DNA from: an uncultured Bacteroidales bacterium
GTDB taxonomy: Bacteria; Bacteroidota; Bacteroidia; Bacteroidales; FEN-979
NCBI GenBank assembly: GCA_903913885.1
Contig: CAIWMX010000040.1
Coordinates: 2,636-66,635, forward strand
Length of the DNA: 64,000 bases
Direction: 5' to 3'
In this document: one piece after another, positions 35,011 through 52,100 of the stretch
Position numbering within the stretch: the stretch's first letter is position 1
Layout: every line of letters begins with the position of its first letter
Notes under the pieces: model-generated
The model's input: only the letters and a program-made list of their open reading frames with translations
Told to the model about the DNA's origin: nothing
Databases searched by the model: none
Position numbers and translations under genes: made by a program

Positions 35011-35018
35011 TATATTTG
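35011..35018 (+). promoter_or_regulatory. Bacteroidetes-type -7 box
   Basis: tatatttg lies 28 nt upstream of the ATG at 35046. Confidence 0.4.
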
Positions 35019-35045
35019 TGGGGAATATCAGGTTATAAACACAAT

Positions 35046-36422: not shown

Positions 36423-36547
36423 CCTGTCGGTCAACAGGCTGATTAGCCCATGTCTGACTGAAAAAACCCTTGACTTTCCTGCCCCGGTTCCTTATCTTTA
36501 CTATGTTTTTCATTCCTTCCTTATTCACAAATAAAACCATATCCATC

Positions 36548-37993
36548 ATGAACCCATTCAAAAAACTGGCCATCCTGCTGTTATTGACAGCGCTGGCCGG
36601 CGCTCTCACGCCCTGGCACGGGCAGTCGGCGCCACCCGGCAACAAGCGCTACACGCTGTACGCCCCGCTTAACTTCAACGGCACCCCTGTCGAATGCAAC
36701 AGCTATCTCACCTGGCAGAAACCCCAGCTGCCCGGGGGAGGCACCCCTGCCGGACTGGCAGGGTACAACATATACAGGGACGGCAGCCTGGTTAAGGGCA
36801 TCAGCAGCGGGGAAACGCTCTATTGGTATGATTATTCGCTGGCAACTGGGACCTATTCATACACCATCACAGCCAGTTACGACCTGGCAGCGTATGGTTC
36901 GCCTGGCCAGTTCGGTGAATCGCCGCCATCCGGGCCGGTCAGCATAATTATGAATTGCGACTTCCCTTTCCCATTTTACGAATCATGGGACATGGGCAAT
37001 TTCAGTGGCTATTCCTGGCAGTTTCATCCATCGCAGTTAAACTGGGTTGTCGCCACAAACCAGGGAAACCCCGCGCCCACCGCAATGTTCAACGGCAGTC
37101 CCGGCGTAACGAATTATGAGTCAAGGCTCGAGAGTTTCAGTTTGTACGGGAAACCCTATTTGTGTGCAAACATGTTCCTGGAGTTCGACTATAAACTTGC
37201 GGATTTTACAACCAGTGGTACGGAAAAACTGGAGGCGGAATATTTTATCGATAACACCTGGTACCCGGTGTTCGAAATCACGAATGTGGGATCAACCGGC
37301 TGGGTTCATCAGAAGATCGATATTTCACAAACTGTGGGGAAACAGTTTAAAGTCGGGTTCAGGGCTTCCGGCCTCAACAGCGGCAACATCGCCAGCTGGT
37401 CGGTTGATAACATCCGTGCATATGCTTTATGCAAGGGCCCTGCCGGATGCGGTTATTCCAAATCAGGAAACACGGTGCACCTTTTCTGGCAGCATCCCGA
37501 CTGCGACAGCCTGCAGGGGGTGATGGGGTACAATGTTTACAGGAGGGATCTTCCCGGGGTTACCTACACCAAACTCAATGCTCCCCTTGTCACAGGTTAC
37601 TATTTCGACGATGTTATTCCCATAGGGTTTCCATATACGCAGTTTAAATATTTGATCGAAGCGATGCACTTTGACCTGCTAACCAACTCTTTTCTCTGCG
37701 GTGCGTTTTGCGACACGCTTGATGTTGACCTTACCCAGGGAATTCCCACAAAAGTCAAGCCACAAACTACTGTCTTTCCGAATCCTGCGAACGACTATAT
37801 TACGGTTCAGAGTAATGTCCCGCTGGGCCTGTGTGAACTGCTTACCGCATCAGGACAAATTGTGGGTTCCTGGACAGGTGGGAAAAAGATAACCCTGACC
37901 ATTCCCGTATCGGCGCTTTCGCCGGGGATTTACATGATCAGGGTTCGCAATGGTTCAGAATCGTTTACCAGGAAGATAGCCGTTATGCATTAA
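36548..37993 (+). CDS. T9SS type-A C-terminal sorting domain-containing secreted protein
   Basis: Signal peptide MNPFKKLAILLLLTALAGA. C-terminus VFPNPANDYITVQS...LSPGIYMIRV. Confidence 0.8.
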   Translation: MNPFKKLAILLLLTALAGALTPWHGQSAPPGNKRYTLYAPLNFNGTPVECNSYLTWQKPQLPGGGTPAGLAGYNIYRDGSLVKGISSGETLYWYDYSLATGTYSYTITASYDLAAYGSPGQFGESPPSGPVSIIMNCDFPFPFYESWDMGNFSGYSWQFHPSQLNWVVATNQGNPAPTAMFNGSPGVTNYESRLESFSLYGKPYLCANMFLEFDYKLADFTTSGTEKLEAEYFIDNTWYPVFEITNVGSTGWVHQKIDISQTVGKQFKVGFRASGLNSGNIASWSVDNIRAYALCKGPAGCGYSKSGNTVHLFWQHPDCDSLQGVMGYNVYRRDLPGVTYTKLNAPLVTGYYFDDVIPIGFPYTQFKYLIEAMHFDLLTNSFLCGAFCDTLDVDLTQGIPTKVKPQTTVFPNPANDYITVQSNVPLGLCELLTASGQIVGSWTGGKKITLTIPVSALSPGIYMIRVRNGSESFTRKIAVMH

Positions 37994-38132: not shown

Positions 38133-39479
38133 TTACCTCTCTTCGAGCGGGATATAGTTCCTTGGCGGCTCAACGGTTTTATACGCCGGCCGTATGATGC
38201 GGCGTCCGCTGATCATCTCTTCAAGCCGGTGGGCGCACCATCCGCTGATGCGGGAGATGGCGAACAACGGGGTGTAGAGTTCTTTTGGGATCTTCAGGCA
38301 CTCATATACAAAGCCGGAATAGAAGTCAACGTTGGGGGAGATCAGCTTATCCTGGGTTCCTTTGAATTCATAGAAGATCTCGGGCCCGATACGCTCGATC
38401 GATTCGTAGAGCGCCATTTCATCCTGGCGGCCTTTTTCGATGGAGAGCAGGCGGGCTTTTTCCTTCAGCAAAATGGCCCTCGGATCGGAAACAGTGTACA
38501 CGGCATGCCCGAATCCGTAGATTTTCCCTGATTTATCGTGAACCTCCTTGCGCGTGATTTTGCGAAGGTATTCTGCCACCTCGTCATCGTTGGCCCAGTT
38601 TTTTACGTTGGCCTTGATATTTTCCATCATCTCGATCACCTGGATGTTGGCCCCGCCGTGCAATGGTCCCTTGAGGGAGCCGATGGCTGCCACGATGGCC
38701 GAATAGGTGTCGGTGCCGCTCGAACTGACCACGCGCGTGGTAAAGGTTGAATTATTCCCCCCGCTGTGTTCTGCGTGAAGCACAAGCGACAGGTCAAGCA
38801 ACTCAGCCTCCAGGGAGGTATAGTCGTTGCCCTTGAGCATATACAGGAAGTTCTCTGCTGTGCTCAGCTTCTTGTCGGGATAGCGCACGGTGAGTGTATC
38901 GTAATAGATCAGGTGGCGCATCGAATGGTACGAATAGACCGCGATGGTCGAGATCTTGGCGATCAGGCTGATCGATTGCCTCAGGATATTCTCGATGGTA
39001 GTGTCATCTGCCTTTTCATCGAGGGTGTAAAGCGCCAGGATCGACCGAGCCAGCATGTTCATGATATCCTTGCCTTTCATGGTGAGGATCATGTCGCGGT
39101 TGAAATTCTCAGGCAGGGCGCGTTGTTCGGCCAGGCCGGCAGAAAACCGGTCAAGCTCATCTTTCAGCGGAAGGCGGCCGAATAGCAGCAAAAACACGGT
39201 TTCGTCAAAGCCGGGGCGTTTTGCCGCCTGGCACCCGCGAACGAGGTCTTTGATATCAATACCACGGTAAATCAGTTTGCCGTCGATGGCTTCCAGCTTA
39301 CCGTCGATCTTATCATATCCAACCACACTACCCACACGCGTGAGGCCGACGAGCACGCCGGTATGGTCAGCGTTGCGCAATCCGCGCTTTACATCGAACT
39401 GTTTAAACAGGGTTTCATCAATTTTGCAGGAGTCTTCAGACAGTACTGCAAGGTCTTTCAGGAAATCGTCTATGATCAT
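38133..39479 (-). CDS. gltA: citrate synthase
   Basis: 448 aa. LHAEHSGGNNSTFT, GPLHGGAN and GFGHAVY active-site blocks. Confidence 0.93.
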   Translation of the reverse strand: MIIDDFLKDLAVLSEDSCKIDETLFKQFDVKRGLRNADHTGVLVGLTRVGSVVGYDKIDGKLEAIDGKLIYRGIDIKDLVRGCQAAKRPGFDETVFLLLFGRLPLKDELDRFSAGLAEQRALPENFNRDMILTMKGKDIMNMLARSILALYTLDEKADDTTIENILRQSISLIAKISTIAVYSYHSMRHLIYYDTLTVRYPDKKLSTAENFLYMLKGNDYTSLEAELLDLSLVLHAEHSGGNNSTFTTRVVSSSGTDTYSAIVAAIGSLKGPLHGGANIQVIEMMENIKANVKNWANDDEVAEYLRKITRKEVHDKSGKIYGFGHAVYTVSDPRAILLKEKARLLSIEKGRQDEMALYESIERIGPEIFYEFKGTQDKLISPNVDFYSGFVYECLKIPKELYTPLFAISRISGWCAHRLEEMISGRRIIRPAYKTVEPPRNYIPLEER

Positions 39480-39487
39480 ACGCTTAT

Positions 39488-41749
39488 CTATTTTAGGGTT
39501 TTCATGTAATTTAAGGCGCTTCCCGACTTGAACCAGTGGATCTGCAGGTCGCTGTAACTATGGTTAATTGAAATTTCTTCGCTGCTGCCGTCGGCATGGC
39601 GAAGTCTTAAGGTCAGCTGTTTCCCGGGGCTCAGGGTGCCAAGCCCTTCCAGGTCAAACACATCATCTTCCCTGATTTTGTTGTAATCGGCAGAATCCGC
39701 GAAGGTGAGCGCGAGCATTCCCTGCTTTTTAAGGTTGGTTTCATGGATGCGCGCAAACGATTTCACGAGCACAGCCCGAACGCCGAGGTGGCGTGGTTCC
39801 ATGGCCGCATGTTCGCGTGAAGAACCTTCACCGTAATTTTCATCGCCAACGATCATCGTGGGAATTCCCTGTGCCTTGTAAAACCGCGCGGTTTTCGACA
39901 CTTCGCCGTATTCTCCTGTATCCGGGTTCTTCACCGCGTTGGTTTTCTCGTTGAAGAAGTTAACCGCCCCCATCAGCAGGTTGTTGGAGATGTTGTCGAG
40001 GTGTCCGCGGAATTTCAGCCAGGGACCGGCCATAGAAATATGGTCGGTGGTGCATTTTCCCTTTGCCTTGATAAGCAGCTTCATCCCGGTGATATCTTTG
40101 CCGTCCCATGCATCAAAAGGCTCAAGCAGCTGCAACCGGTCGGAAAGCGGGTTTACACTTACCTTTATTTCCGAAGAATTGGCCGGAGGTGCCAGGTACC
40201 CGGGATCTTTGACGTCGAAGCCGTTGACGGGAAGTTCCCAGCCGCTCGGTTCGTCCAGTTTCACCTGCTGTCCGGATTCATTGACCAGAAAGTCGGTGAG
40301 TGGATTGAATGTGAGGCTGCCGGCCAGCGTCAGGGCGGTAACGATCTCAGGCGAGGAGATAAAGCTGTGCGTGCCTGCATTGCCGTCGTTCCGTTTGGCG
40401 AAATTCCGGTTGAATGAATTCAGGATGGAATTTTTCCGGTCGGGATTGTCAATTTTCCGCGACCACTGACCGATGCACGGTCCGCAGGCATTGGCCATGA
40501 CCACACCGCCGATGCTGTTGAACACGTCGAGCAATCCGTCGCGTTCGCAGGTATAACGAATTTGTTCCGAACCGGGTGTGACCACGAATTCTGCTTTTAC
40601 CTTCAGGTGCTTTTCACCCGCTTGCTTTGCAACAGAAGCCGCCCTCGAGATATCCTCATACGAAGAGTTGGTGCAGGAACCGATCAGGCCGACTTCAAGC
40701 GTTTCAGGATAACTGTTCTCCTTTACAAATGCCTTGAATTCAGAGATCGGGTGTGCCACATCCGGTGAGAAAGGCCCGTTGATGTAGGGCTCCACCTCCG
40801 AGAGGTTGATCCGGATGAACTGGTCGTAATATGCAGCAGGGTCCTGACAAACCTCTGCATCCGGCGCAAGATAAGCGGCATAGCGATCAGCCAGCGCCGA
40901 TACTTCACTGCGCCCGGTGGCGTCGAGATACGCCTTCATTTTCTGGTCGTAGCTGAAAACCGAACAGGTTGCCCCAATTTCGGCCCCCATGTTGCAGATG
41001 GTCCCTTTTCCAGTACAGGAAAGCGAGTCAGCACCTTCGCCGAAATACTCCACGATAAAACCAGTGCCGCCCTTGACGGTAAGGATCCCGGCAAGCTTGA
41101 GGATAACATCCTTGGCCGAAGCCCATCCACTCAGTTTCCCGGTGAGTTCGACGCCAAGCACTTTAGGCATTTTCAACTCGAGCGGCATGCCCGACATCAC
41201 ATCCACGGCATCGGCGCCGCCAACGCCTATGGCAACCATGCCCAGCCCACCGGCATTAGGCGTGTGCGAATCGGTACCGATCATCATCCCGCCCGGGAAT
41301 GCATAATTTTCAAAGATCACCTGGTGTATGATCCCGGCTCCCGGTTTCCAGAACCCGATGCCATATTTTGCCGATACTGTTTCAAGAAAATCATATACTT
41401 CCTTGTTCTGTACCATGGCTGTAGCCAGATCACTCTTAACCCCAAGCTGGGCCTGGATCAGATGATCGCAATGCACGGTTGAGGGAACGGCAGCACTTGC
41501 CCGGCCAGCTGTCATAAACTGAAGCAGCGCCATCTGGGCTGTAGCATCCTGCATGGCCACCCGATCAGGCAGGAAATTGACATAATCGACACCCCTGGCG
41601 TATGGATTTGACGTGTGGGTGTCGAACAAGTGACCATAAAGTATCTTTTCCGTAAGCGTAAGTGGCTTGTTCAGCAGGGTCTTCGCCAGGACGACACCCT
41701 GTGAAATTTTTTCGTAAGTGTTTTGTATTAAATTGATATTCAATAACAT
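39488..41749 (-). CDS. aconitate hydratase (mitochondrial-type, approx 750 aa)
   Basis: [21 protein letters not shown] and CGPCIGQW Fe-S ligand blocks. Its size and layout match the monomeric mitochondrial-like aconitase described for Bacteroides. Confidence 0.93.
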
Positions 41750-41866
41750 AATAAAATTATATTTAACGTAGACTAAATGAGATTTTTAGAAGTTTAGATG
41801 TAAATGCTATTATTGGAAATAACGTGTTAAATTTATGAAAAATTTCATCCCCAAACCAATTTTACA

Positions 41867-44800
41867 ATGCCACAATTAGAATCTCTGCTTGAAGAATGGA
41901 AAATCGTTAAAAAAAAGGATAAAAGCAGCCATCTCCAGGCACTGAAAATTATTGAAACGACAGAAAAGATTTTCGCATCAGGCATTGAGGGCACAGTGCG
42001 GAATTCGTTCTGGTTCGAATTTCTCGATCTGACCCGGAAATCCCTTTTCCTTAGCGCACTTGACACCCCTGTAGAACGGTCGAGATGGGCCGATGTTGTA
42101 TTCAGAATCATTCAGCATACGAATTACGACCTTCGCGACCTGATGGAGCAGCGTGTTGCGGAGCATCCCAACCATATTTTATTCAAGGACATGTCGTCGG
42201 CTGTCGCAATTGACTGGACATACGATCAGATATACCGCCATCTCCGGGAAATTGCCAGCCTGTTTTACAAATCGGTAGCGACGGCACCCAGGGTCGCCAT
42301 TTACAATGAAAACTGCCTGGAAGGGGCCTGTACCGACCTGGCCTGCCTGATGTTCGATATTTATGACACGCCGCTCAGTCCGCATTTCAAGGCGGACATC
42401 CTGCTGCCGATTTTCAATGAACTCAAAATCAACATTGCCCTGGCCGACACCGACGAACGATTATCCGTCCTGCTTAAGATCAGGGAACAGGCTGAAATTA
42501 AATTCATAATCTTTTCCCTGCAGCCGGTCAATGCCAAAACGCGTGATGTCAGGTACCTCGTTGAAGAGAGCAAGAAGATCTCCCGGTGGGATATGGATGT
42601 AATCCTTGCAAGGCAACCGGTGAGAATAAACAACCAGGTCGCCACCACCATGTTCACCTCGGGCAGTACGGGGCTCCCCAAGGGAGTTTCCTTTTCCATA
42701 TATAATATTGTATCAAAACGGTTCGCCCGCGCCGCTGCCGTGCCGGAAGCGGGAGATGAAGTATTCCTCTGCTACCTGCCTTTATTTCATACGTTTGGAA
42801 GATACCTGGAACTGACTGGTTCCATCTTCTGGAGCGGGACTTACATTTTTGCCGGGAACACCTCTTCGGAAACCCTGCGTTCGCTCTTCCCGAAGATGCA
42901 CCCGACAGGATTTATCAGCATTCCGTTACGCTGGCAGGAACTTTATGAACATTGCCAGGAGGTAATCAGCAACGTTGAAAGCCAGGAACTCAGGGAGCAG
43001 GCGGTTCGCGATGTCGTAGGCTCCCGGTTGCATTGGGGGTTATCGGCCGCAGGTTACCTCGACCCGGCAGTATTCCGTTTTTTTAATCAATATGGTATAC
43101 ACCTCAACAGTGGTTTCGGGATGACGGAAGCCACCGGCGGCATCACCATGACACCTCCGGGCAAATACAAGGAGTTTTCAGTGGGGGTTCCCCTACCGGG
43201 CGTTCAAACCAGGCTCACCCCCGACTCGGAACTTGAAATAAGTGGCCATTACATAGGTGCTTACTTAGAAACAGCCGCCCCGGGCGAGGTAATCCCATAC
43301 CCTGTTTCACCTGCGGCCGATCGGTGGCTTTCGACAGGGGATGTGTTCAAACAAGCCGCTGACGGCTATTTTGAGATTGTTGACCGGGTGAAGGATATTT
43401 ACAAGAATAATCGCGGCCAGACTGTTGCGCCGCAGGTCATCGAAAAGAAATTCAACAAAGTGCCTGGTATCAAAAACGTGTTCCTCGTCGGCGATAACAG
43501 GCCTTACAATGTACTGCTTATTGTCCCGGACCATACGGATCCCCTGTTTAATTCTCTTGAGGCACAAAACCTGTCGGAATATTATCACCAGATCGTGATG
43601 GCCGCAAATACCGATGTGGCGCCCTATGAGCGGGTCATCAACTTCACGGTGCTCGACCGTGACTTCAGCCCGGAGAAAGGTGAACTGACCCCGAAGAACT
43701 CGTACAACCGGAAAGCAATCGAAACAAATTTCAAGGAGGTTGTTGAAACCCTTTACCAGAGTAACAGTATCAATATAGCAGCAAAAGATTTCTCGATCAT
43801 CATCCCGAAATGGTTTTTCCGCGACCTGGGCATCCTTGAGACCGACATACGGTATGAACGACAGCAACTGGTCAATCGCCGCAACGGATCAAAGCTGAGT
43901 TTCAGCAGGCTTAAAGGGAACTGGTACCGGATCGGGCACCTCAAGTACCACATCGAATCAAACCAGATCGACCTCGGTACCTTGACCCGGCAACCCAAGA
44001 TATGGATCGGGAACCCGGCCCTGATCGCCTTCTGCCCCGTCAAGGAGGGCTGGGATCTCTCCATGGGCGCCTTTTCCTCCAGCATATCCATCGCCGGGTT
44101 CAGGCAACTCGACGAAAAAGCCTTCCCGGTCATCAAAACCATACGCGACCAGCAGCTGATCCAGGCGAACTACCTGCTTTTCCGCACCTATTTCCGCGGA
44201 TTCGAGGAGGCATACAAGGCTACCGACGAACTCGGAAAAATCCTCATCAGCGCTGAACCCAGGCTGGCCATCGCCATCAGGCACAGGCTCGAAGCGCTTG
44301 CCACGCATCCCGAGGAGGAGATCAGGTGCCTTGCCTATCGCCTGATCCTGCTGAAAGCGCCAAAGCCGGAAGAGATTCAGTTCATGCCTACCTTCATCGA
44401 ATCGGGCCTCTCCTTTCTCAACGAAAATTCGATTCGCGAGATAGCATCCGGCAATTTCGGGAAACACAGGCTGGATGCCCTGAAACAGCGGCTTTACTGG
44501 TACCGGACCCACCTCAGCTGGCCAGCCTCAAAACGTCACCGGCGGGCCTTTGAAGACGTGCTGGGACTGCTTTACAATTTCGCAGTGCTGCACCTTGAAT
44601 ATTACGTCCCTGTGCGGGCTGAGCTTTCAAGATGGATCCTTCACAGGGAGGACCCCTATCTCTCAAAAAAAGCAGAGGCCTATTTCTACAAGCTTGCCGC
44701 AGTTTTCGAAAAGGAGATTGACAGCAAATCAACACGCAGTACCATTTCCGACTGGAAATCAAAACTGGTCTTTGAGCACGGAATATCAGATCTTGAAAAA

Positions 44801-46462
44801 CAACGTGTTACCAAAATATTCCAATCCACGACGTTCCTGAAGGAGAGTATCATCCTCACCTTCAGCGAACCCGATTTCAAGCTCAGCGACGTGCCGGATA
44901 AAGGGATCTGGATATTACGATTGCTGGCTTTCAAGGAGTTCAAGCATTACAGGCTGTCCATCAATACGAATGCAGGCAAGCATTTTGACCTGCATATGGT
45001 GATGAGCGAAAACCCGCAATTCAAGCCAAATCCCGACACTTTCTACTGGCTGGCCTCCCTTGCCGGGTTCCCATACGGCCCCGCCGTCGCGCCGATCCTG
45101 GGCAGCAGCAGGCCAAACCTTGGCGTGCTTACCACGCAATACATCGGCGGGTTATCAGCCTGGGACAAGATCCGTGAATTATCTGAAATTCATCGTTCTT
45201 CGGGATATGTCGGTGGCAATGCCTGGAAAAAAATATTTATCAGGTCGTTTGCGGTCACCTTTAAAGCCTGGCACCACAGCGGGCGCCAGATTGTGCCGGG
45301 AGCGATATCGCCTGCCAACGTAGCCATCCCGGAGATGGATTTCAAGGGAAGCGCAGTCGTTTTGTCGCTGGCCGGGTGGTCGGTGTACAAAAACACCCTC
45401 TCCCTGGTTTATCCCATGGTGCAGGATTATTATGCCAAAATATCCTCGATCTACCCACTGTGCCATAAGCTGCTTGATATCAACTGGATCTTCGACGCAT
45501 GCATCGAAGCGCTCGGAAAGGAAGAAGCCACGCTGTTCCTGGAGCAGTTGCAGCATGACCTGAAAGCAAAGCCGGTAACCTGCTTTGATGCGACGGATCT
45601 CCAGGCGCACCTCGACCATTACCTGGCTGTGACCATCAAACGATATTACCTGCCAGTTTCACTCTACAGCGCCGTCGACCAATTTCAGGACTGGTACAAG
45701 ATCAACCCGCTTACCACGGCTGCAGCCAAGGAACAAACACTCATCGAACTGATGGAATTGTACAAGATCCACCAGTACGCAGAACTGGCCCGGTACTTCT
45801 TTTACCGGCACACCTACTTTGCAGATGCCGCGGAGGAGATTCACGAAGCCTTCGACCGGCTGCTTGAGAAAATGGAAGGAAATCCCGACGGGCTAGCCAT
45901 CCAGCTGGTTGAACTCTCAGACCTGCAATCAGCCTTGCACGATAACGACGACCGCAACATCTTCAGCAGGATGGTGTTTCCCAGGTTACAGGGGGAACAG
46001 GGGATCGATTTCATGAAAATCGGTGAAAACAGGAAAGAGCATCTCGTGGTAAGGTTCCCCATCCAGGATAAATCGGGCAGGCACTACATCCTGCGCGAGC
46101 CGATCGAAGCCCGCGAAACCGGGCAGCTCTACCAGCTTTTCTTCCGTGAAAACTATCCCAAGGACATTTCAGACCATGATCATCAGTATGTACTGACCGA
46201 TGAAAACGAAAAGATCGTCGGCGGAATCACCTTCAGGCACATTGAAGATCACAACATTTTACTCGACGGGATCGTGGTAACCTCCTCACTCCAGGGCAAT
46301 GGCATTGCATCCGGGATGATCGAAAAATTCTTTGCCAGCATGGCGGCCCGGGGTGCGGAGTTCGTAAAAGCACATTTCCTGTTCGGCAATTATTACCTGA
46401 AACATTTCTTTGAAGTGGACAAGAAATGGGGGGCGTTGATCAAAACCCTGAAAAAGTTGTAA
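41867..46462 (+). CDS. 1531-aa multidomain protein: N-terminal AMP-dependent synthetase/ligase, approx 750-aa unknown middle region, C-terminal GNAT acetyltransferase
   Basis: AMP-binding motifs MFTSGSTGLPKGVSFS, GFGMTEATGG, LSTGDVF..DGYFEIVDRVKD within about aa 90-640. GNAT motif A LQGNGIASGMIEKF within the last approx 130 aa. One uninterrupted ORF. Confidence 0.8.
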   Translation: MPQLESLLEEWKIVKKKDKSSHLQALKIIETTEKIFASGIEGTVRNSFWFEFLDLTRKSLFLSALDTPVERSRWADVVFRIIQHTNYDLRDLMEQRVAEHPNHILFKDMSSAVAIDWTYDQIYRHLREIASLFYKSVATAPRVAIYNENCLEGACTDLACLMFDIYDTPLSPHFKADILLPIFNELKINIALADTDERLSVLLKIREQAEIKFIIFSLQPVNAKTRDVRYLVEESKKISRWDMDVILARQPVRINNQVATTMFTSGSTGLPKGVSFSIYNIVSKRFARAAAVPEAGDEVFLCYLPLFHTFGRYLELTGSIFWSGTYIFAGNTSSETLRSLFPKMHPTGFISIPLRWQELYEHCQEVISNVESQELREQAVRDVVGSRLHWGLSAAGYLDPAVFRFFNQYGIHLNSGFGMTEATGGITMTPPGKYKEFSVGVPLPGVQTRLTPDSELEISGHYIGAYLETAAPGEVIPYPVSPAADRWLSTGDVFKQAADGYFEIVDRVKDIYKNNRGQTVAPQVIEKKFNKVPGIKNVFLVGDNRPYNVLLIVPDHTDPLFNSLEAQNLSEYYHQIVMAANTDVAPYERVINFTVLDRDFSPEKGELTPKNSYNRKAIETNFKEVVETLYQSNSINIAAKDFSIIIPKWFFRDLGILETDIRYERQQLVNRRNGSKLSFSRLKGNWYRIGHLKYHIESNQIDLGTLTRQPKIWIGNPALIAFCPVKEGWDLSMGAFSSSISIAGFRQLDEKAFPVIKTIRDQQLIQANYLLFRTYFRGFEEAYKATDELGKILISAEPRLAIAIRHRLEALATHPEEEIRCLAYRLILLKAPKPEEIQFMPTFIESGLSFLNENSIREIASGNFGKHRLDALKQRLYWYRTHLSWPASKRHRRAFEDVLGLLYNFAVLHLEYYVPVRAELSRWILHREDPYLSKKAEAYFYKLAAVFEKEIDSKSTRSTISDWKSKLVFEHGISDLEKQRVTKIFQSTTFLKESIILTFSEPDFKLSDVPDKGIWILRLLAFKEFKHYRLSINTNAGKHFDLHMVMSENPQFKPNPDTFYWLASLAGFPYGPAVAPILGSSRPNLGVLTTQYIGGLSAWDKIRELSEIHRSSGYVGGNAWKKIFIRSFAVTFKAWHHSGRQIVPGAISPANVAIPEMDFKGSAVVLSLAGWSVYKNTLSLVYPMVQDYYAKISSIYPLCHKLLDINWIFDACIEALGKEEATLFLEQLQHDLKAKPVTCFDATDLQAHLDHYLAVTIKRYYLPVSLYSAVDQFQDWYKINPLTTAAAKEQTLIELMELYKIHQYAELARYFFYRHTYFADAAEEIHEAFDRLLEKMEGNPDGLAIQLVELSDLQSALHDNDDRNIFSRMVFPRLQGEQGIDFMKIGENRKEHLVVRFPIQDKSGRHYILREPIEARETGQLYQLFFRENYPKDISDHDHQYVLTDENEKIVGGITFRHIEDHNILLDGIVVTSSLQGNGIASGMIEKFFASMAARGAEFVKAHFLFGNYYLKHFFEVDKKWGALIKTLKKL

Positions 46463-46479
46463 TTTTGCGCAGGGATTAC

Positions 46480-46563
46480 GAAGGACGAAGGACGAAGGAT
46501 GTGGGACGTGGGACGAAGGATGAAGGACGAAGGACGTGGGACGAAGGACGTGGGACGTGGGGA
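46480..46563. repeat. 7-bp tandem array (gaaggac/gtgggac, 12 units) between the large fusion gene and icd
   Basis: Direct reading. Two unit types are interleaved (A A A' B B A' A A B A B B'). Confidence 0.92.
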
Positions 46564-46627: not shown

Positions 46628-47893
46628 ATGACTGGAGAAAAGATTACGTTAATAAATGACAAAATTTCAGTTCCGGATTTCCCGGTGATCCCTTTTATTG
46701 AAGGCGACGGTACCGGACCCGACATCTGGAGTGCCAGCGTACGCGTTATAGACGCCGCTGTTGAAAAAGCCTACCAGGGAAAACGTAAAATTGTGTGGAG
46801 AGAAGTGCTGGCCGGCGAGAAAGCTTTCGTCCAGACCGGGGAATGGCTGCCACAGGAAACGCTTGATGTGATCAGGGAATACCTGGTGGCCATCAAGGGA
46901 CCGCTCACCACGCCGGTTGGCGGGGGGATTCGTTCTCTGAACGTAGCCCTGCGGCAGATTCTCGACCTGTATACCTGCGTCAGGCCGGTTCGTTATTTCC
47001 AGGGAGTTCCCTCCCCTGTCAAGCGTCCGGAGACCACCGACATGGTCATTTTCCGTGAGAATTCAGAAGACATCTATGCCGGCATCGAATGGATGCAGGG
47101 CACCCCTGAAGTTGAAAAGGTCATCCGTTTCCTGATCGATGAAATGGGTGTAAAAAAAATTCGTTTCCCTGAGTCATCCTCCATCGGGATCAAACCGGTA
47201 TCGAAAGAGGGTACTGAACGCCTTGTGAGGGCAGCGATCCTTTATGCCATTGAGCATAAAAAACCTTCCGTAACGCTGGTTCACAAAGGGAACATCATGA
47301 AATTCACCGAAGGGCAATTCAAACAGTGGGGCTATGAACTTGCCGAACGTGAATTCGGCGACAATGTCTTCACCTGGCTTCAGTACGACAAAGTGAAGGC
47401 CAAAGACGGCGAAGCGGCTGCGGAAGTACTCCAGAAAGAAGCCATATCACAGGGTAAGATCATTGTCAAGGATGTAATTGCCGATGCTTTCCTACAGCAG
47501 ATCCTGACCCGCCCGGCTGAATATTCAGTAATCGCCACACTCAACCTCAACGGTGATTACATCTCTGATGCGTTGGCAGCAATTGTCGGTGGTATTGGAA
47601 TCGCACCGGGCGCCAACATCAACTACATAACGGGCCACGCCGTTTTTGAAGCGACCCATGGCACAGCTCCCAAATATGCGGGGAAAGACCAGGTGAACCC
47701 GGGGTCGGTCATCCTGTCGGGTGTGATGATGCTGGAATATATGGGCTGGATGGAAGCCGCTTCAATGATCGTTAAAGGTCTTGAAGGGGCCATCCGGAAC
47801 AAACGGGTAACCTACGATTTCGAAAGGCTGATGGAAGGTGCGACAAAACTTAAATGTTCTGAATTCGGTACGGAAATCATCGCCAACATGTAA
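46628..47893 (+). CDS. icd: NADP-dependent isocitrate dehydrogenase (homodimeric prokaryotic type)
   Basis: 421 aa. [45 protein letters not shown]. Confidence 0.95.
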
Positions 47894-47947: not shown

Positions 47948-47988
47948 AAAAAAAACGGGGCGGCCAAAATGGTCGCCCCTGATTTTTT
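47948..47988. terminator. bidirectional rho-independent terminator between icd and the PorP/SprF gene
   Basis: 9-bp stem ggggcggcc (47957-47965) / ggtcgcccc (47971-47979), loop aaaat. It is flanked by an A-run upstream and a T-run downstream. Confidence 0.7.
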
Positions 47989-47992
47989 GTTC

Positions 47993-49099
47993 CTAGTAGA
48001 ATGACGGACATTCCATCGGACCTCCGCCCCTGCGGCCAGCGCCACCGGGCAAATATCCTCCGCCACCACCACCGCCAAAGATCGAAAGTTTATCAAATTC
48101 CAGGATCAGGCTGATTTCATGCGCGCCACCGGTACCCTGCAGTGCTCCAGAAACCTGGAGATCATAACTGTACATGAATTTGAGGTTCATATCTTCATAA
48201 AAGGAGTACCGATATCCGGCAACCAGTGCAACGGCACTGTTCACAACGCCGGTCATGGTTGATTTGTACCAGCCACCTACGTAGATATTGTATTTCAGCA
48301 AGTTGAGGCCAATCTGCAGGGAATTCAGGTTTGCCTGGCTCTGATAGATCCCGCCAAGGTTGAATTTCAACGGGTCGTCGCCGCCACGACTCATGGCAGA
48401 AGAAGAACTGCCACCGGGGCCGGAAACGACAATAAGATCAAACTGTCCAACCCACTTGCGTGGATACTGCGAAGAACCAGATGAAAGGAAACTCACATCC
48501 GGTTGGAAGATATGGTCAACCCCCAATCCGATATTTCCACTTATATTTCCCTGCGGATTGATGAATTGCAATACGCCTCCTACGCCAAAGTCAGGCACAA
48601 CGCGTTTGTTGGCATCCGGGGGGACAAATGACGACTGGTAAATATTTCCGTATTTGCCACTCAGCTGATCAGCAAAAACAAGGTCGCCCCAGTTTACTGT
48701 ACGCTGCATGATACCAGCTTTGATCCCCAGCTGGCTTACCATGAAACTGGTAAGCGGGATACGAACGCCAATAGTGAGTGCTGCGCCAAAGTTCTTGATC
48801 AATCCTGCACCAGGGGTATCCTGGTTGATCATGATCCCAACTCCTCCTGAGCCCGGCAGATTCCGGTCGCCCAGGTCGGCAGAAAAATAGTATGACTTAA
48901 AGGGATTTGGCAAACTGGGCCATTGATCGCGAAACAGGAAACGGGCACGTAATCCGCTGTTGATCCCAGTGTATGCCGGGTTATAGTATATCGGCGTGCT
49001 GAAATACTGAGAGTAATTCATGTCCTGGGCATAAGTGCCGGGAGCAATTCCAAGCATACTCAGTATTACAAGGATCGGGAATATAAATCGTTTTTTCAT
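47993..49099 (-). CDS. PorP/SprF family type IX secretion system membrane protein
   Basis: Signal peptide, then QDMNYSQYFSTPIYYNPAYTG...RARFLFRDQWPS, typical of the PorP/SprF N-terminus. It lies immediately downstream of a type-B CTD gene. Confidence 0.85.
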   Translation of the reverse strand: MKKRFIFPILVILSMLGIAPGTYAQDMNYSQYFSTPIYYNPAYTGINSGLRARFLFRDQWPSLPNPFKSYYFSADLGDRNLPGSGGVGIMINQDTPGAGLIKNFGAALTIGVRIPLTSFMVSQLGIKAGIMQRTVNWGDLVFADQLSGKYGNIYQSSFVPPDANKRVVPDFGVGGVLQFINPQGNISGNIGLGVDHIFQPDVSFLSSGSSQYPRKWVGQFDLIVVSGPGGSSSSAMSRGGDDPLKFNLGGIYQSQANLNSLQIGLNLLKYNIYVGGWYKSTMTGVVNSAVALVAGYRYSFYEDMNLKFMYSYDLQVSGALQGTGGAHEISLILEFDKLSIFGGGGGGGYLPGGAGRRGGGPMECPSFY

Positions 49100-49117: not shown

Positions 49118-52100
49118 TTATCGGATTAAAGTCACTGTACCCATGGTCTTGCCGGAATTTGCACCACCATTATCAGAACCGTTCCAGGGAGATTCATCCA
49201 CAAAAAGGGCATTAATTCTCCACATATAGTTGCCCTGCGGCATCAGGTTACCTTCAAATGTGCCGTCCCATCCTTCGGTCGGAACACCCTTGTCGTCAAG
49301 TTTGGTCGATTCCCACATCAGGTGGCCCCAGTTGTCAAATACTGTGACATGATATTGCTTGAGGTTCACCCCGATTGGCTGGAATAACCTGATTCCAAGG
49401 CTGGTACTTGCAGGAGCAAATGCGTTGGGCACAAAGAGCCCCTTGAACAACAGCTTATATTCATAGAATGTGGTATCGGTGCAGTCAAACTCGTTATGAG
49501 AGATCAACTTGATAACGTAGGATCCATCTTCTGTGAACGTGGCCACAGGATTTGTTTCCGTTGATGCCTTGCCGTTCCCGAACTCCCAGTTGTAGGTATT
49601 CGTTCCGCCAGTCAGGTTATTCAGTTTGACCTGGCCCTGTTTGCCGTCATACCCATTAACGATGGTAAATGAACTGACGGGTGTGATATTGACCCTCACC
49701 GCTGAATCAACCGTATCGATACAACCGTAGTGGTCTTTTACAATCATGCGGACAGTCCACAGCCCGGTGGTATCGTACTTGTAACTCGGATCCTTGATGG
49801 TGGCCGAATCCCTGAGTGTGGTCGGGTCGCCAAAGAACCAGCGCCATTTTGCAATGGTTGTGTCGGAAACAAGTGATTTATCTGTAAAGAAGGTCGGATC
49901 ACCCTTGCAGGCCGTCGTATTCTCAAAATGTGCGGCAGGCAATCCGAAAACCCGTGTCGGCTTGGTCAGCGAATCCTTACAGCCATATTTATTCATAACC
50001 ACCAGTTTGACATTGTAAATGCCGGCGGTATCAAACATATGCGACGGGTTCTTGCGGAGAGCCGTATCGTTTGCCTTCGGGCTGAAAGTCCAGTTCCACG
50101 TGATGTTCTTTTCTCCCCATGTTTTTGAAGTGTCCCTGAAAAGCGATATCTGTTTCAGACAGGTAGGAACATTGGAGAAATAGGTCTTTGGTGTCGGATG
50201 GATCTTCACCGAAGTTGACATGCTGTCGACAATGGTTGCCCCGTCAATCAACGCCTGGATGGCCAGGTTGACATGGTAGGTTCCGGTATCGCTAAAGGTG
50301 TGGTAGATGGGTGTTTTATGCTTGGAATAGGTTGTATCCTTGCCATCGCCCCAAGTCCAGTGCCACTGGGTAATCTTGGAAACAGGCAATGAACTGTCGG
50401 CAAAAGCGATCTTGTATCTTGCACAGAGCGTATCTTTATTCGTATAGACAGCCTGGATGCAAGCGAAACGCCGCACACTTCTTGTAATACTGTCGATACA
50501 GCCATGCGTGTTTGTGATGACCAGCTGTACCGGATAAACGCCAGGGGTAACATAGAGGTGGGCAGTATCTCCCGGTCCCGGGGCAAGGATGGTCGTGGAT
50601 GTACCATCTCCCCAATTCCACAGCCAGCTGGCAATGGATCCCGATCCCGAATACTGCGTGGAATCGAAGACGTGGACAGAACTGTCGCATGGCGTGGAAA
50701 CGAACCTGTACAAAGGCTTAGGCGCTGCATATACCTGAATCTCCTGGTAAACGCTGTCGGCGCAGTTATCTGAATTATAGGCCTTCATCCTTACAGCATA
50801 TATCCCGGGTCCGGTGAAAATATGGGATGGACGGTACAAGTATGATTTATTGTTGGGTCCGGAAGCAGGGTCGCCAAAGTTCCAGGATACGGAATAGAGT
50901 GAATCGCCCAGGGCCTTGTTTACAGGATAGAAATGGGTCGGATATCCCTGGCAAACAGTATCATGCGTGAAGGTGAATCTGAACCCGGGCTTCACATGAA
51001 CGCTGTCGACGATGGTATCGATGCATCCATAGGTATCAGTCACGATCAGGGTAACCAAATAAGTAGTATCGGTTACCGGGAAGGTAAATGACGGGTTCTG
51101 GATATTTGAGGTGTAACCTGGTGTAAATATCCATTCACGGGTTGTTATGGCCGACCCGGTTGCTGTTGACTGATCCTGAAAGTCCACTTTGCCTTTGGGG
51201 CAGTTGAATGAGAGGTACGAGAACGCGCTGACCGGTTTCGGACGCGATATTACAGGTATGGTAACTGAATCGGAACAGTTGAACAGGTTCTTCACCGTCA
51301 GCTTGACCTGGAATGTTCCGGAAGTTGTAAACACGTGAATCGGGTTTTTAATGGTAGCCGGAGGAGTTCCGTCGCCGAAATCCCACAACCAGCTCTGTAT
51401 ACTGCTGCCAGGCACGGTTGAAAGGTCGGTGAATTGTGTTCCTGCATTAATACATGCCGGGTCGTACTGGAACATGGCCGTTGGCTTAGGATTCACATTG
51501 ATCTGCAGGGTGGTGTCCTTGGTGCACTGGTGCGAGTTTGTCACAGTCAGTTTGACGTTGTATGTTCCCTGGGTATTATAGATATGTGTCGGGTTCGGAA
51601 GCGTGGAGGTATTGTTTGCCCCGCTTGATGGATCACCGAAGTCCCAGTCCCAGGAAACGATTGTTCCTGAAGCCGTGGTTGAAGCATCGGTGAACTGGGT
51701 TGGGCTGGCCATACAAGCTGTGTCAGCCGAGAAAATGGCAGCAGGCGCAGGGTTAACCGTGATTGTTTTACCGCCTACAATACTGTCAAGACAGCCATTG
51801 GCATTCGTTACCACCAGCCTGACAATGAACGGGCCGCCTACGGTGAATGCATGCGTCGGGTTTTGGGTGGTCGACGTATTGTTGACACCTGAAGCCGGGT
51901 CGCCGAAATTCCAATGCCATATGGTGATGGCAGGTCCGCCATTGGTTTGCGAAAGATCGGTAAACTGTAGCGAGATACCGGCACATGGTGTCGGACCAGT
52001 AGAGAAATTGGCTATAGGATGGAAGCCGACTTGTACAAGGTTAACTTTCTCGTTCGTACAATTGTCGGAAGTTGTAATGGTAAGTTTTACACTGTAATTA

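What the first reader, a model, noticed from the sequence alone, without database searches (positions are those of the whole stretch)
41867..46462. 1531-aa AMP-ligase / unknown 750-aa region / GNAT fusion inserted between aconitase and icd
Seen: there is one uninterrupted ORF. The N-terminal approx 640 aa have the acyl/aryl-CoA ligase motifs (TSGSTGLPKG, GMTEATGG, TGD..DGYFEIVDRVKD). The last approx 130 aa have a GNAT motif A (LQGNGIASGM). About 750 aa in between (approx 43800-46000) contain nothing I recognise. Established: GNAT acetyltransferases such as Pat switch off AMP-forming acyl-CoA synthetases by acetylating their catalytic lysine, and Pat itself carries a synthetase-like domain. Inference: this protein could couple acyl activation to N-acyl transfer in cis, giving an N-acyl amino acid, lipid or protein acylation. 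Alternatively it could be a self-regulating synthetase. Its position among the genes that make 2-oxoglutarate from acetyl-CoA hints at an acetyl-CoA or organic-acid-linked role. This is my best candidate for an uncharacterised enzyme system in the core part of the window.
Basis: partly seen in the sequence, partly recalled or inferred. Interest (0 to 1): 0.65.

Follow-up and report, generated by a model that had tools for sequence, protein, structure and literature searches.

The report
Giant acyl-CoA ligase–pseudokinase–acetyltransferase fusion
A real, widely conserved but never-studied 1531-residue bacterial protein joins an acid-activating enzyme, a peptide-binding-type helical scaffold, a dead kinase and a histone-acetyltransferase-like domain, and it repeatedly sits next to citric-acid-cycle genes, so it most likely controls them by protein acylation.

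Summary
Window 41867-46462 (+) is one uninterrupted 1531-aa ORF between aconitase and icd. It has an intact AMP-forming (ACSL/CAR-like) adenylation domain and a C-terminal GNAT. It is not a misassembly: about 300 cluster representatives from independent assemblies share the same ~1500-1700-aa architecture, down to ~21% identity. They come from Bacteroidota, a Chlorobiota-labelled MAG, Calditrichota, Acidobacteriota and others.

The "unknown" 750 aa resolve in a confident AlphaFold model (pLDDT 91, pTM 0.85). They form a very conserved β-domain with no PDB match, an ARM/HEAT-like solenoid, and a protein-kinase-like domain. In this clade the kinase-like domain lacks the catalytic Asp but keeps the Asn and the DFG-type Asp. 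A distant subfamily keeps a canonical D-x4-N loop.

The GNAT is closest, in both sequence and fold, to GCN5, PatZ and MsPat, which are protein lysine acetyltransferases. Adjacency to TCA genes recurs in different arrangements and with non-orthologous citrate synthase and aconitase types.

Best reading (confidence about 0.4): a new Pat-like lysine acyltransferase with a built-in, probably active acyl-CoA synthetase, acting at the acetyl-CoA/citrate node. No member has been characterised. The substrate, the acceptor and the role of the pseudokinase are all inferred.

The parts
41867..46462 (+). Whole gene ('BIG'), 1531 aa, one ORF.
   Evidence: Full-length collinear homologs.
41867..42145 (+). 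N-terminal extension (aa 1-93) before the adenylation core. It has no family match and was not modelled.
   Evidence: the Pfam match starts at residue 94. The alignment shows it is present but variable in homologs.
42146..43234 (+). Adenylation core of the ANL superfamily (Pfam AMP-binding, aa 94-456; the core continues to about aa 505). It carries motifs A3 TSGSTGLPKG, A5 GFGMTEATGG and A7 TGD.
   Evidence: 155 bits. (best PDB sequence matches are carboxylic acid reductase A-domains, luciferases and FadD enzymes). (motifs essentially invariant in 68 diverse family members).
43412..43762 (+). C-terminal subdomain of the adenylation domain (AMP-binding_C_3, aa 516-632), with the A8 hinge DRVKDIYKNNRGQTVAP just upstream (aa 506-522) and an atypical A10 loop TPKNSYNRK (K610, R615, K616).
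43772..44101 (+). β-rich domain (aa 636-745). It is among the best-conserved parts of the middle region and holds three of its five family-wide invariant residues: G690, Y694 and N716 are invariant, and P647, W649, P710 and W713 are nearly so. No similar solved structure was found.
   Evidence: pLDDT >90. (conservation). (no PDB hit at E<=0.001; all 50 hits listed are helical-repeat proteins).
44150..44863 (+). α-helical solenoid (aa 762-999), ARM/HEAT-like.
   Evidence: (designed armadillo repeat proteins and importin-α, E about 0.03, probability up to 0.98: weak). (faint HEAT_2 hit in the distant homolog P0248).
44906..45976 (+). Protein-kinase-like bilobal domain (aa 1014-1370). It is a pseudokinase in this protein: Ala1146 sits at the catalytic-Asp position, and there is no β3 Lys/αC Glu pair. 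Asn1151 and Asp1158 (the DFG-type position) are retained.
   Evidence: Vps34, mTOR, PRPK/Bud32 with TM 0.60, CDC7, Eph kinases, JAK2 JH2. (motif analysis; a distant subfamily keeps D-P-S-P-x-N).
46007..46447 (+). GCN5-like GNAT acyltransferase domain (aa 1381-1527). Motif A is Q1476-x-x-G1479-x-A1481, and an acidic residue, D1467, lies on strand β4.
   Evidence: (tGCN5 TM 0.62, PatZ, MsPat). (best PDB sequence match is Tetrahymena GCN5; family profile E=1e-8). (conservation).
39488..41749 (-). Aconitase (mitochondrial type). It is divergently transcribed from BIG across a 117-bp gap.
   Evidence: In one search, the gap is 88-147 bp in most loci of the >=58%-identity clade that carry aconitase (up to 290 bp in a few).
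38133..39479 (-). Citrate synthase (PRK14032 type), downstream of aconitase.
46628..47893 (+). NADP-isocitrate dehydrogenase, 165 bp downstream of BIG on the same strand. No terminator-like site lies between the two genes. A strong terminator follows icd at 47957-47979.

Best explanation
BIG is a single-chain 'activate-and-transfer' acyltransferase. In effect it is a new type of Pat-like bacterial protein lysine acyltransferase.

The N-terminal ACSL/CAR-type adenylation domain is probably catalytically active. It converts a carboxylic acid larger than acetate, plus ATP and CoA, into an acyl-CoA, or at least reports on the availability of the acid, ATP and CoA. The C-terminal GCN5-like GNAT then uses acyl-CoA to acylate lysine(s) on a protein. 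That protein is held by the rigid β-domain/ARM-HEAT/pseudokinase body. The pseudokinase has lost phosphotransfer but keeps its two Mg/nucleotide-ligand positions, so it probably serves as a nucleotide- or ligand-sensing and docking module.

The likely targets are the enzymes at the acetyl-CoA to citrate to 2-oxoglutarate node (citrate synthase, aconitase, isocitrate dehydrogenase), possibly together with the protein's own adenylation domain.

What is shown: the domain architecture, the conservation of the catalytic motifs, the GCN5/Pat-like nature of the GNAT, and the recurrent linkage to TCA genes. What is inferred: the activity of each domain, the protein nature of the acceptor, the identity of the targets, and any channelling between the two catalytic ends.
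For: (1) All ANL core motifs (A3, A5, A7, A8) are essentially invariant in 68 family members whose middle regions fall to ~20% identity. That level of constraint is expected for a working enzyme. It contrasts with Pat's dead synthetase-like domain (PMC8556138).

(2) The GNAT's best PDB match by sequence is the Tetrahymena GCN5 histone acetyltransferase: E=0.005 with the single sequence and E=1e-8 with the family profile, with human KAT2A and PCAF also listed. By fold, the best GNAT matches are tGCN5 (TM 0.62), E. coli PatZ and the M. smegmatis cAMP-regulated Pat.

(3) GNAT motif A and an acidic residue at position 1467 on β4 (D or E in 65 of 69) are conserved family-wide.

(4) The middle region is a confidently modelled, single rigid body (pLDDT 91, pTM 0.85). 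It consists of an ARM/HEAT-like solenoid and a kinase-like domain, both of which are typical protein- or peptide-docking modules.

(5) The context recurs. In the >=58%-identity clade nearly every locus with enough flank reads CS-ACN<>BIG-ICD. In ~48% relatives, citrate synthase is divergent (L044, L116) or convergent (L101), with fumarase downstream. In the 44%-identical L123, the genes Mdh-Mdh-malate racemase-CS-AcnB-BIG lie on one strand. The CS (PRK09569 type) and aconitase (AcnB) there belong to different families from the window's. De novo clustering of neighbours finds citrate synthase as the only neighbour family present in all three identity bins.

(6) There is precedent. A GNAT (Rv2170) acetylates and inhibits M. 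tuberculosis ICDH, and acetylation modulates E. coli ICDH and citrate synthase (PMC11254643).
Against: No family member has been characterised, so no activity has been demonstrated.

Many distant members, including those from Acidobacteriota, Calditrichota and the ~1600-aa subfamily, have no TCA neighbour within 8-10 kb.

GNAT fold and sequence similarity to GCN5 does not prove a protein acceptor.

The A10 loop lacks the canonical G-K. K610 is displaced by two residues relative to the CAR lysine in the alignment, so the adenylation and thioester chemistry could be atypical.

The similarity of the solenoid to ARM repeats is weak (E about 0.03).

The most conserved part, the β-domain, has no assigned role.

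The model coordinates could not be inspected, so the geometry between the GNAT site and the platform is unknown. The adenylation domain was not modelled together with the rest of the protein.
Confidence: 0.4

Rival explanations
1. Small-molecule N-acyl synthase. The adenylation domain makes a (fatty) acyl-CoA, and the GNAT transfers the acyl group to an amino acid, polyamine or lipid head-group, giving an N-acyl amino acid or aminolipid. The middle region binds the acceptor or a membrane.
For: The Rosetta-stone logic of fusing an acyl-CoA maker to an acyl-CoA user applies. The adenylation domain is of the long-chain ACSL/FadD/CAR type. It has Gly where acetate-specific Acs has the pocket-closing Trp in A5 (GFGMTE; the Trp rule comes from my own knowledge of Acs). 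Neighbours that supply 2-oxoglutarate and glutamate could supply an amine acceptor: icd in the window, and glutamine synthetase next to the gene in L028.
Against: The GNAT is closest to protein lysine acetyltransferases, not to N-acyl amino acid synthases or aminoglycoside or amino-acid acetyltransferases. About 600 aa of solenoid and pseudokinase is hard to explain for binding a small acceptor. No lipid-biosynthesis, transporter or membrane genes are conserved nearby. No transmembrane or secretion feature was noticed.
Confidence: 0.2
2. Self-regulating acyl-CoA synthetase. The physiological output is the acyl-CoA itself, feeding citrate or methylcitrate synthase. The GNAT acts in cis as a built-in Pat that acylates a lysine of the A10 loop (K610 or K616) when acyl-CoA accumulates. 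The pseudokinase and solenoid add further sensory input.
For: The adenylation motifs are invariant. K610 (66 of 68) and K616 (57 of 68) are conserved in the A10 loop. The gene is adjacent to citrate synthase, which consumes acyl-CoA, and to Mdh, CS and AcnB in L123. The Acs/Pat and AcsA/AcuA circuits are well established (PMC8556138; abstracts of PMC11255334 and PMC13121692).
Against: The Pat recognition motif PX4GK is absent (TPKNSYNRK). The domain is not Acs-like: it is of the ACSL/CAR type, with Gly at the Acs Trp position. An 780-aa insert is excessive for cis-regulation. Many members are not near CS. This rival overlaps with the best explanation and could be true at the same time.
Confidence: 0.2
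3. Regulatory scaffold with a non-catalytic adenylation domain. As in Pat, the synthetase-like domain only binds a ligand (ATP, AMP, acyl-CoA or an acid) and allosterically gates the GNAT. No acyl-CoA is made.
For: Type I and II Pat enzymes use a synthetase-like domain purely as an acetyl-CoA sensor (PMC8556138). The A10 catalytic lysine is not in its canonical register.
Against: Pat's domain has lost its catalytic His. Here every catalytic motif that could be tested is invariant over deep divergence, which is unusual for a purely ligand-binding pseudoenzyme.
Confidence: 0.12
4. Artefact: a chimeric misassembly or a read-through of adjacent genes.
For: None was found.
Against: Hundreds of independent assemblies encode the same collinear ~1530-aa protein. 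There is no stop codon or frame change. The interdomain model is confident (pTM 0.85).
Confidence: 0.01

Closest known systems
Type I protein acetyltransferases Pat/PatZ/YfiQ (Salmonella, E. coli)
   Same: Both are large single-chain enzymes with an acyl-CoA-synthetase-related domain at the N-terminus and a C-terminal GNAT. PatZ is among the best structural matches of the GNAT. Both have a functional theme of acetyl-CoA and central metabolism.
   Different: Pat's N-domain is of the NDP-forming (succinyl-CoA-synthetase-like) type and is catalytically dead (PMC8556138). BIG's is AMP-forming (ANL) with all core motifs intact. Pat has no β-domain, solenoid or kinase-like insert. BIG gives no Pfam hit to Pat's N-terminal domains.
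GCN5/PCAF histone acetyltransferase catalytic domain
   Same: It is the best sequence match (profile E=1e-8) and among the best fold matches (TM 0.57-0.63) to the C-terminal domain. Motif A is shared.
   Different: The GCN5 general base Glu122 aligns with Leu1465. The conserved acidic residue in BIG is two positions later on the strand, at D1467. BIG has no bromodomain or other chromatin context, and it is bacterial.
Long-chain acyl-CoA synthetases (ACSL/FadD15/FadD11 type) and carboxylic acid reductase A-domains
   Same: These are the best sequence matches to aa 85-633. The AMP-binding_C_3 subdomain and the ACSL-style signature (WL.TGD...DR.KD.YK...G..VAP) are shared.
   Different: All NCBIfam scores are far below the family cut-offs (128 against 476 and lower). 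The A10 loop is atypical. The domain is followed by 900 further residues instead of ending there or carrying a carrier protein and reductase.
Protein-kinase-like superfamily: PI3K/PIKK (helical plus kinase), Bud32/PRPK, pseudokinases such as JAK2 JH2
   Same: The bilobal fold is shared, and a helical solenoid precedes the kinase-like domain as in Vps34 and mTOR. The catalytic-loop Asn and the DFG-type Asp are retained. A distant subfamily has a PKA-like D-P-S-P-x-N loop.
   Different: There is no sequence-level similarity. In the window protein the catalytic Asp, the β3 Lys and the αC Glu are all missing. The Asn-to-Asp spacing is 7 residues, against about 13 in canonical kinases. Global TM scores to PI3K and mTOR are low (0.13-0.29).
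AceK (isocitrate dehydrogenase kinase/phosphatase) and GNAT Rv2170 as regulators of ICDH
   Same: Both are precedents for a kinase-fold protein and for a GNAT that control isocitrate dehydrogenase post-translationally (PMC11254643; AceK's kinase-like fold is from my own knowledge). BIG lies directly upstream of icd.
   Different: AceK does not appear among the 50 best structural matches listed. The similarity here is one of concept only.

Membership tests
ANL superfamily (AMP-forming adenylating enzymes) | Pfam AMP-binding match above the gathering score | tested here: met
   155.1 bits against a cut-off of 29.9, and AMP-binding_C_3 at 44.6 bits against 20.8.
ANL superfamily (AMP-forming adenylating enzymes) | Core motifs A3 (T/S)SG(S/T)TGxPKG, A5 GxTE, A7 TGD, and the A8 hinge DRxKD...G | tested here: met
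   All are present, and they are 58-68 of 68 conserved across the family.
ANL superfamily (AMP-forming adenylating enzymes) | A10 catalytic lysine in the PxxxxGK register | tested here: inconclusive
   The loop reads TPKNSYNRK. K610 (66 of 68) lies two residues upstream of the CAR lysine in the HMMER alignment. R615 is invariant. There is no G-K. No structural model of this domain was made.
Specific long-chain-fatty-acid--CoA ligase families (NCBIfam PRK06187, FadD11, etc.) | Score above the curated family cut-off | tested here: not met
   The best score is 128 bits against a cut-off of 476. All 77 hits fall far below their cut-offs. The protein is therefore an ANL enzyme of the ACSL/CAR type but belongs to no named equivalog.
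GNAT superfamily | Pfam Acetyltransf_1 match above the gathering score, plus the GNAT fold | tested here: met
   35.4 bits against 20.7. Foldseek probability 1.0 to many GNATs, with TM up to 0.69.
GNAT superfamily | Acyl-CoA pyrophosphate-binding motif A, (Q/R)xxGx(G/A) | tested here: met
   Q1476-G-N-G1479-I-A1481. Family-wide counts are R/Q/K at 1476 in 58 of 69, G1479 in 65 of 69, and A/G/S at 1481 in 66 of 69.
GNAT superfamily | A general-base acidic residue in the active site | tested here: inconclusive
   D1467 on β4 is D or E in 65 of 69. It aligns two residues after GCN5 Glu122. The geometry could not be checked because no coordinates were available.
Type I/II Pat protein acetyltransferases | NDP-forming acyl-CoA-synthetase-like regulatory domain | tested here: not met
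   There is no Pfam hit of that kind. The N-terminal domain is AMP-forming. The definition is taken from PMC8556138.
Type I/II Pat protein acetyltransferases | Acetylates the PX4GK lysine of AMP-forming synthetases | not testable with these tools
   This needs biochemistry. BIG's own A10 loop lacks PX4GK.
Protein-kinase-like superfamily | Bilobal kinase fold | tested here: met
   Foldseek matches include PRPK at TM 0.60 over 235 columns, Vps34 at E=4e-5, and CDC7, Eph and JAK2 JH2 at probability 1.0. The model has pLDDT 91.
Protein-kinase-like superfamily | Catalytic Asp of the D-x4-N loop, the β3 Lys and the αC Glu (an active kinase) | tested here: not met
   Ala1146 occupies the Asp position. 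Arg1029 sits on a neighbouring N-lobe strand, and no β3 Lys or αC Glu is present. Asp is present at that position in 13 of 69 family members, including the ~1600-aa subfamily with D-P-S-P-x-N.
Protein-kinase-like superfamily | Metal-ligand Asn (catalytic loop) and Asp (DFG) | tested here: met
   N1151 in 63 of 69 and D1158 in 61 of 69.
PI3K/PIKK kinases | DRHxxN catalytic loop and global helical-plus-kinase superposition | tested here: not met
   There is no DRH motif. TM to Vps34 and mTOR is only 0.13-0.29, despite being the best E-values. The resemblance in domain order is a lead, not membership.
ARM/HEAT repeat proteins | Significant structural match to repeat solenoids | tested here: inconclusive
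   The best E-value is 0.028, with TM 0.2-0.4, to designed ARM proteins and importin-α. One faint HEAT_2 Pfam hit occurs in a distant homolog.
Anti-phage defence systems (PADLOC) | Match to any defence-system model | tested here: not met
   No families were matched.

The most novel reading that the evidence does not exclude
BIG is a 'metabolite-to-acylome transducer'. One polypeptide takes a free organic or fatty acid, activates it to the CoA thioester, and writes it directly as a lysine acyl mark on citrate synthase, aconitase or isocitrate dehydrogenase. The targets are docked on a PI3K-like solenoid/pseudokinase platform that also reads nucleotide status. In the sister subfamily that keeps a canonical D-x4-N kinase loop, the same chassis would be a dual writer, acting as both kinase and acyltransferase. 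This would be a sixth, mechanistically distinct class of bacterial protein acyltransferase. It would also be the first case in which acyl-CoA is generated on demand for a regulatory protein modification.
Probability: 0.15. Interest if true: 0.85.

Novelty: new variant of a known kind. Interest (0 to 1): 0.68.

Why it matters
Bacterial lysine acylation is known to tune central metabolism, but only five architectural types of GNAT protein acetyltransferase are recognised. None of them contains an AMP-forming synthetase or a kinase-fold domain (PMC8556138).

This family spans several phyla and is annotated only as 'AMP-binding protein' or 'GNAT family N-acetyltransferase'. It is repeatedly linked to the entry steps of the TCA cycle. 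If it acts as proposed, it would show how many environmental anaerobes (Bacteroidota, a Chlorobiota-labelled lineage, Calditrichota, Acidobacteriota) couple organic-acid and energy status to flux towards 2-oxoglutarate. It would also provide a self-contained enzyme for site-directed protein acylation from free acids.

The middle region adds two further points of interest. It contains a highly conserved β-domain with no structural relative. It also offers a clear example of a bacterial kinase-to-pseudokinase transition within one family.

Tried and rejected
- Pfam on the 817-aa middle segment at E<=10 gave nothing. NCBIfam gave only sub-threshold ANL hits.
- PDB sequence searches with the single protein and with a 16-sequence family profile hit only the ANL and GNAT parts. 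No kinase was hit.
- A second AlphaFold model, restricted to aa 636-1005, was made to expose the β-domain to Foldseek. Only weak ARM-repeat hits to the helical part came back, and nothing matched the β-domain.
- Five literature searches (AMP-binding/GNAT fusion, pseudokinase/GNAT/acyl-CoA synthetase, and others) found no description of this architecture.
- Small ORFs upstream of the gene in the Acidobacteriota locus (127 aa) and in L042 (137 aa) were tested as a possible conserved partner. They are unrelated.
- Other neighbour families were examined: PAS histidine kinases, SpoIIE phosphatase, peroxiredoxin, UbiD, RecO, SDR and sulfotransferase. They are lineage-restricted or are common gene families, so they were not taken as partners.
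- The Iso_dh next to the gene in L045 turned out to be homoisocitrate/isopropylmalate-dehydrogenase-like and sits in a LeuCD/HMGL/CoA-transferase cluster. It counts only weakly towards the TCA link.
- Defence-system membership was rejected.
- Proteins of 750-1140 aa in the representative search were considered as 'A-domain-less' variants. They are truncated ORFs.
- The model coordinates are not exposed to the scripting machine, so active-site geometry and interdomain distances could not be measured.

Full report
**Observation.** Window 41867-46462 (+) is a single ATG-initiated ORF of 1531 codons. Pfam places AMP-binding at aa 94-456 (155 bits), AMP-binding_C_3 at 516-632 and a GNAT (Acetyltransf_1) at 1427-1515. 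The 817 residues in between give no Pfam hit even at E<=10.

The flanking genes are as described. Citrate synthase (38133-39479) and a mitochondrial-type aconitase (39488-41749) lie on the minus strand, diverging from the gene across 117 bp. NADP-isocitrate dehydrogenase (46628-47893) lies 165 bp downstream on the same strand. No terminator-like site falls between the two genes, and a strong one follows icd. T9SS genes further downstream mark the organism as Bacteroidota. In Bacteroides fragilis the three TCA genes are contiguous, BF638R_3567-3569 (PMC11304471). 'Inserted between aconitase and icd' is therefore a fair description.

**Is the gene real?** Yes. A database search returns more than 100 full-length proteins of ~1529 aa at 57-85% identity over 100% of the query, from many independent assemblies. 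A search of 1.8 billion cluster representatives with the middle region alone finds 307 relatives. In the best 150 listed, the region always sits at about residues 640-1420 of a 1500-1700-aa protein, down to ~21% identity. The shorter hits that were inspected are ORFs truncated inside the adenylation domain. Distant members scanned with Pfam have the same AMP-binding, AMP-binding_C_3, gap, GNAT layout.

Source labels include Bacteroidales, Prolixibacteraceae, Draconibacterium, Chlorobiota, Calditrichota, Acidobacteriota and a 'Pseudomonadota' MAG. All are MAGs or metagenomes, and the only names given are generic. Composition shows no discontinuity across the gene. Misassembly is excluded.

**What the middle region is.** An AlphaFold2 model of aa 636-1531, built on a 69-sequence alignment, is confident: pLDDT 91 and pTM 0.85. 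This implies one rigid multi-domain body. It contains four parts:
- a β-rich domain (aa 636-745);
- an α-solenoid (aa 762-999);
- a bilobal α/β domain (aa 1014-1370);
- the GNAT (aa 1381-1527).

Foldseek against the PDB matches the bilobal domain to protein-kinase-like folds. These include the Vps34 helical-plus-kinase construct (E=4e-5), mTOR, PRPK/Bud32 (TM 0.60 over 235 columns), CDC7, Eph kinases and the JAK2 JH2 pseudokinase.

A second model of aa 636-1005 (pLDDT 94.6) matches only ARM/HEAT repeat proteins, and weakly (E about 0.03). Nothing matches the β-domain. Yet the β-domain is among the best-conserved parts of the middle region: it holds three of the five family-wide invariant residues (G690, Y694 and N716, all invariant in 69 sequences).

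Mapping kinase motifs onto the model and the alignment gives this picture. The catalytic-loop Asn (N1151, 63 of 69) and the DFG-type Asp (D1158, 61 of 69) are conserved. The catalytic Asp position is Ala1146 in the window protein and is variable in most of the family. There is no β3 Lys/αC Glu pair. A distant ~1600-aa subfamily instead reads ...A-D-P-S-P-x-N...H-D-Y, with a Glu-rich αC, which is a canonical D-x4-N kinase loop. The domain therefore derives from a genuine kinase and is a pseudokinase in the window's clade. The PI3K-like domain order (β-domain, helical, kinase-like) is noted as a lead only, because global TM scores are low and the DRH motif is absent.

**The two catalytic ends.** The adenylation domain's best relatives are carboxylic acid reductase A-domains, FadD-type and long-chain acyl-CoA ligases, and luciferases. 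No curated NCBIfam family reaches its cut-off.

Motifs A3, A5, A7 and A8 are essentially invariant in 68 diverse members. This argues for a working adenylating enzyme, unlike the catalytically dead NDP-forming synthetase-like domain of Pat (PMC8556138). The A10 loop is atypical (TPKNSYNRK). K610 is conserved but lies two residues out of register with the CAR lysine, R615 is invariant, and the PX4GK motif recognised by Pat enzymes is absent. From my own knowledge of Acs, the Gly in GFGMTE occupies the position of the Trp that closes the acetate pocket, so a substrate larger than acetate is expected.

The GNAT has an intact motif A and a conserved acidic residue at 1467 (D or E in 65 of 69). Its best PDB sequence match is the Tetrahymena GCN5 histone acetyltransferase: E=0.005 with the single sequence and 1e-8 with the family profile, well ahead of any other GNAT. 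By fold, the best GNAT matches are GCN5, E. coli PatZ and the M. smegmatis cAMP-dependent Pat. In short, it looks like a protein lysine acetyltransferase.

**Genomic context.** Among 125 loci from genome and metagenome scans, almost every locus of the >=58%-identity clade with enough flank has CS(-)-ACN(-)<>BIG(+)-ICD(+), with tightly conserved spacing. That alone could be inherited synteny. However, the linkage reappears in other arrangements:
- In ~48% relatives, citrate synthase is divergent at -191 or -331 bp (L044, L116) or convergent at +88 bp (L101, L102), with fumarase subunits downstream (L044, L105).
- In the 44%-identical L122 and L123, CS, aconitase and BIG lie on one strand. In L123 the full run is two malate dehydrogenases, a malate-racemase-like LarA, citrate synthase, AcnB and BIG, followed by a histidine kinase and a σ54 regulator.

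The citrate synthase there (PRK09569 type) and the aconitase (AcnB) belong to different families from those in the window (PRK14032 type; mitochondrial-type aconitase). The association therefore survives non-orthologous replacement of the partner. De novo clustering of all neighbours finds citrate synthase as the only family present in all three identity bins.

Against this, many distant members stand alone. Others sit next to different central-metabolism genes: glutamine synthetase in L028, lipoamide dehydrogenase in L033 and lipoate-protein ligase in L126. The Iso_dh next to the gene in L045 is homoisocitrate/IPM-dehydrogenase-like and is weaker evidence.

**Mechanism.** The best-supported reading is a new Pat-like protein lysine acyltransferase with a built-in acyl-CoA synthetase. 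In this reading the ANL domain generates an acyl-CoA, or senses the acid, ATP and CoA. The GCN5-like GNAT transfers the acyl group to lysines of a protein docked on the solenoid/pseudokinase body. The targets lie at the acetyl-CoA/citrate/2-oxoglutarate node. Precedents are GNAT Rv2170 inhibiting M. tuberculosis ICDH, and acetylation tuning E. coli ICDH and citrate synthase (PMC11254643).

I put this at about 0.4. The architecture, motif conservation, GNAT affinity and context are shown. The activities, the acceptor and any channelling are inferred.

The rivals are:
- a small-molecule N-acyl synthase (0.2), disfavoured by the GCN5-like GNAT and the large docking-type insert;
- a self-regulating synthetase that supplies acyl-CoA to citrate synthase and acylates its own A10 lysine (0.2), compatible with the context but lacking PX4GK and not explaining the insert; it could coexist with the main model;
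- a sensor-only adenylation domain (0.12), disfavoured by the motif invariance;
- an artefact (0.01), refuted.

**Comparison with known systems, and novelty.** The five recognised types of bacterial GNAT protein acetyltransferase use NDP-forming synthetase-like, cAMP-binding, ACT or NADP-binding regulatory domains, or none at all (PMC8556138). None has an AMP-forming synthetase, a solenoid or a kinase-fold domain. Five literature searches found no description of this architecture. No Pfam, NCBIfam or PADLOC model covers the middle region.

Each domain belongs to a known superfamily, so I rate the protein a new variant of a known kind rather than categorically new. Even so, the combination, its breadth across phyla, the orphan β-domain, the kinase-to-pseudokinase transition within the family, and the robust TCA linkage make it a worthwhile experimental target (interest 0.68).

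**Limits.** The adenylation domain, and its position relative to the rest of the protein, were therefore not modelled. Taxon labels come from MAG records.

Noticed in passing
window 46478-46561 (intergenic, between the BIG stop codon and the icd start codon): There is an array of about 12 tandem heptamers, GAAGGAC/GTGGGAC (TRF period 7, 9-10 copies, with a 28-nt super-period). It lies just upstream of an AT-rich promoter-like stretch before icd. It occurs only once in the window (9 overlapping pattern matches against 0 expected) and is absent from all 128 related loci. It is therefore private to this genome and could be a contingency-type simple-sequence repeat in the icd leader or promoter.
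   Followed up: partly
window 47993-49099 (-) and 49118-58816 (-): A PorP/SprF-family T9SS membrane protein lies next to a 3232-aa protein that consists of about 34 PKD repeats with a CHU_C type IX secretion signal. This looks like a giant secreted adhesin together with its PorP-like partner. The pair is syntenic with BIG-icd in most close relatives, and the repeat number varies.
   Followed up: partly
window 41750-41866 (117-bp aconitase<>BIG divergent intergenic region): The spacing between the divergent start codons is 88-147 bp in most loci of the >=58%-identity clade that carry aconitase, and 115-119 bp in most of the closest ones (66-85% identity). A few loci reach 290 bp. This suggests a shared bidirectional promoter or regulatory region for aconitase/citrate synthase and BIG/icd. 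The sequence itself was not analysed.
   Followed up: no
L123 452-16152 (metagenome contig Ga0180433_10001504): One strand carries two malate dehydrogenase paralogs, a nickel-pincer malate-racemase-like LarA homolog, citrate (Si)-synthase, AcnB and the BIG homolog, followed by an AtoS/AtoC-like histidine kinase and σ54 response regulator. This may be a D/L-malate-to-isocitrate module with its own two-component control.
   Followed up: partly
family alignment A2, positions equivalent to window aa 1144-1160 (proteins P0209, P0210, P0213, P0221, P0235 and others): A deep-branching ~1600-aa subfamily keeps a PKA-like catalytic loop (A-D-P-S-P-x-N), an H-D-Y in place of DFG, and acidic αC residues. 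Most other members have lost the catalytic Asp. This is a kinase-to-pseudokinase transition inside a single fixed architecture.
   Followed up: partly
window 35016-36422 (+) and 36470-37993 (+): An AAA_14/DUF4143 ATPase gene and a gene for a protein with a T9SS C-terminal sorting domain lie upstream of citrate synthase. Both are also syntenic in several relatives.
   Followed up: no
L015 (record labelled 'Alphaproteobacteria bacterium' MAG, SACF01000011.1): This locus matches the window proteins at the same identities and near-identical coordinates as L016 from a Bacteroidales MAG, including the T9SS PorP gene. The Alphaproteobacteria label is probably a binning error.
   Followed up: no
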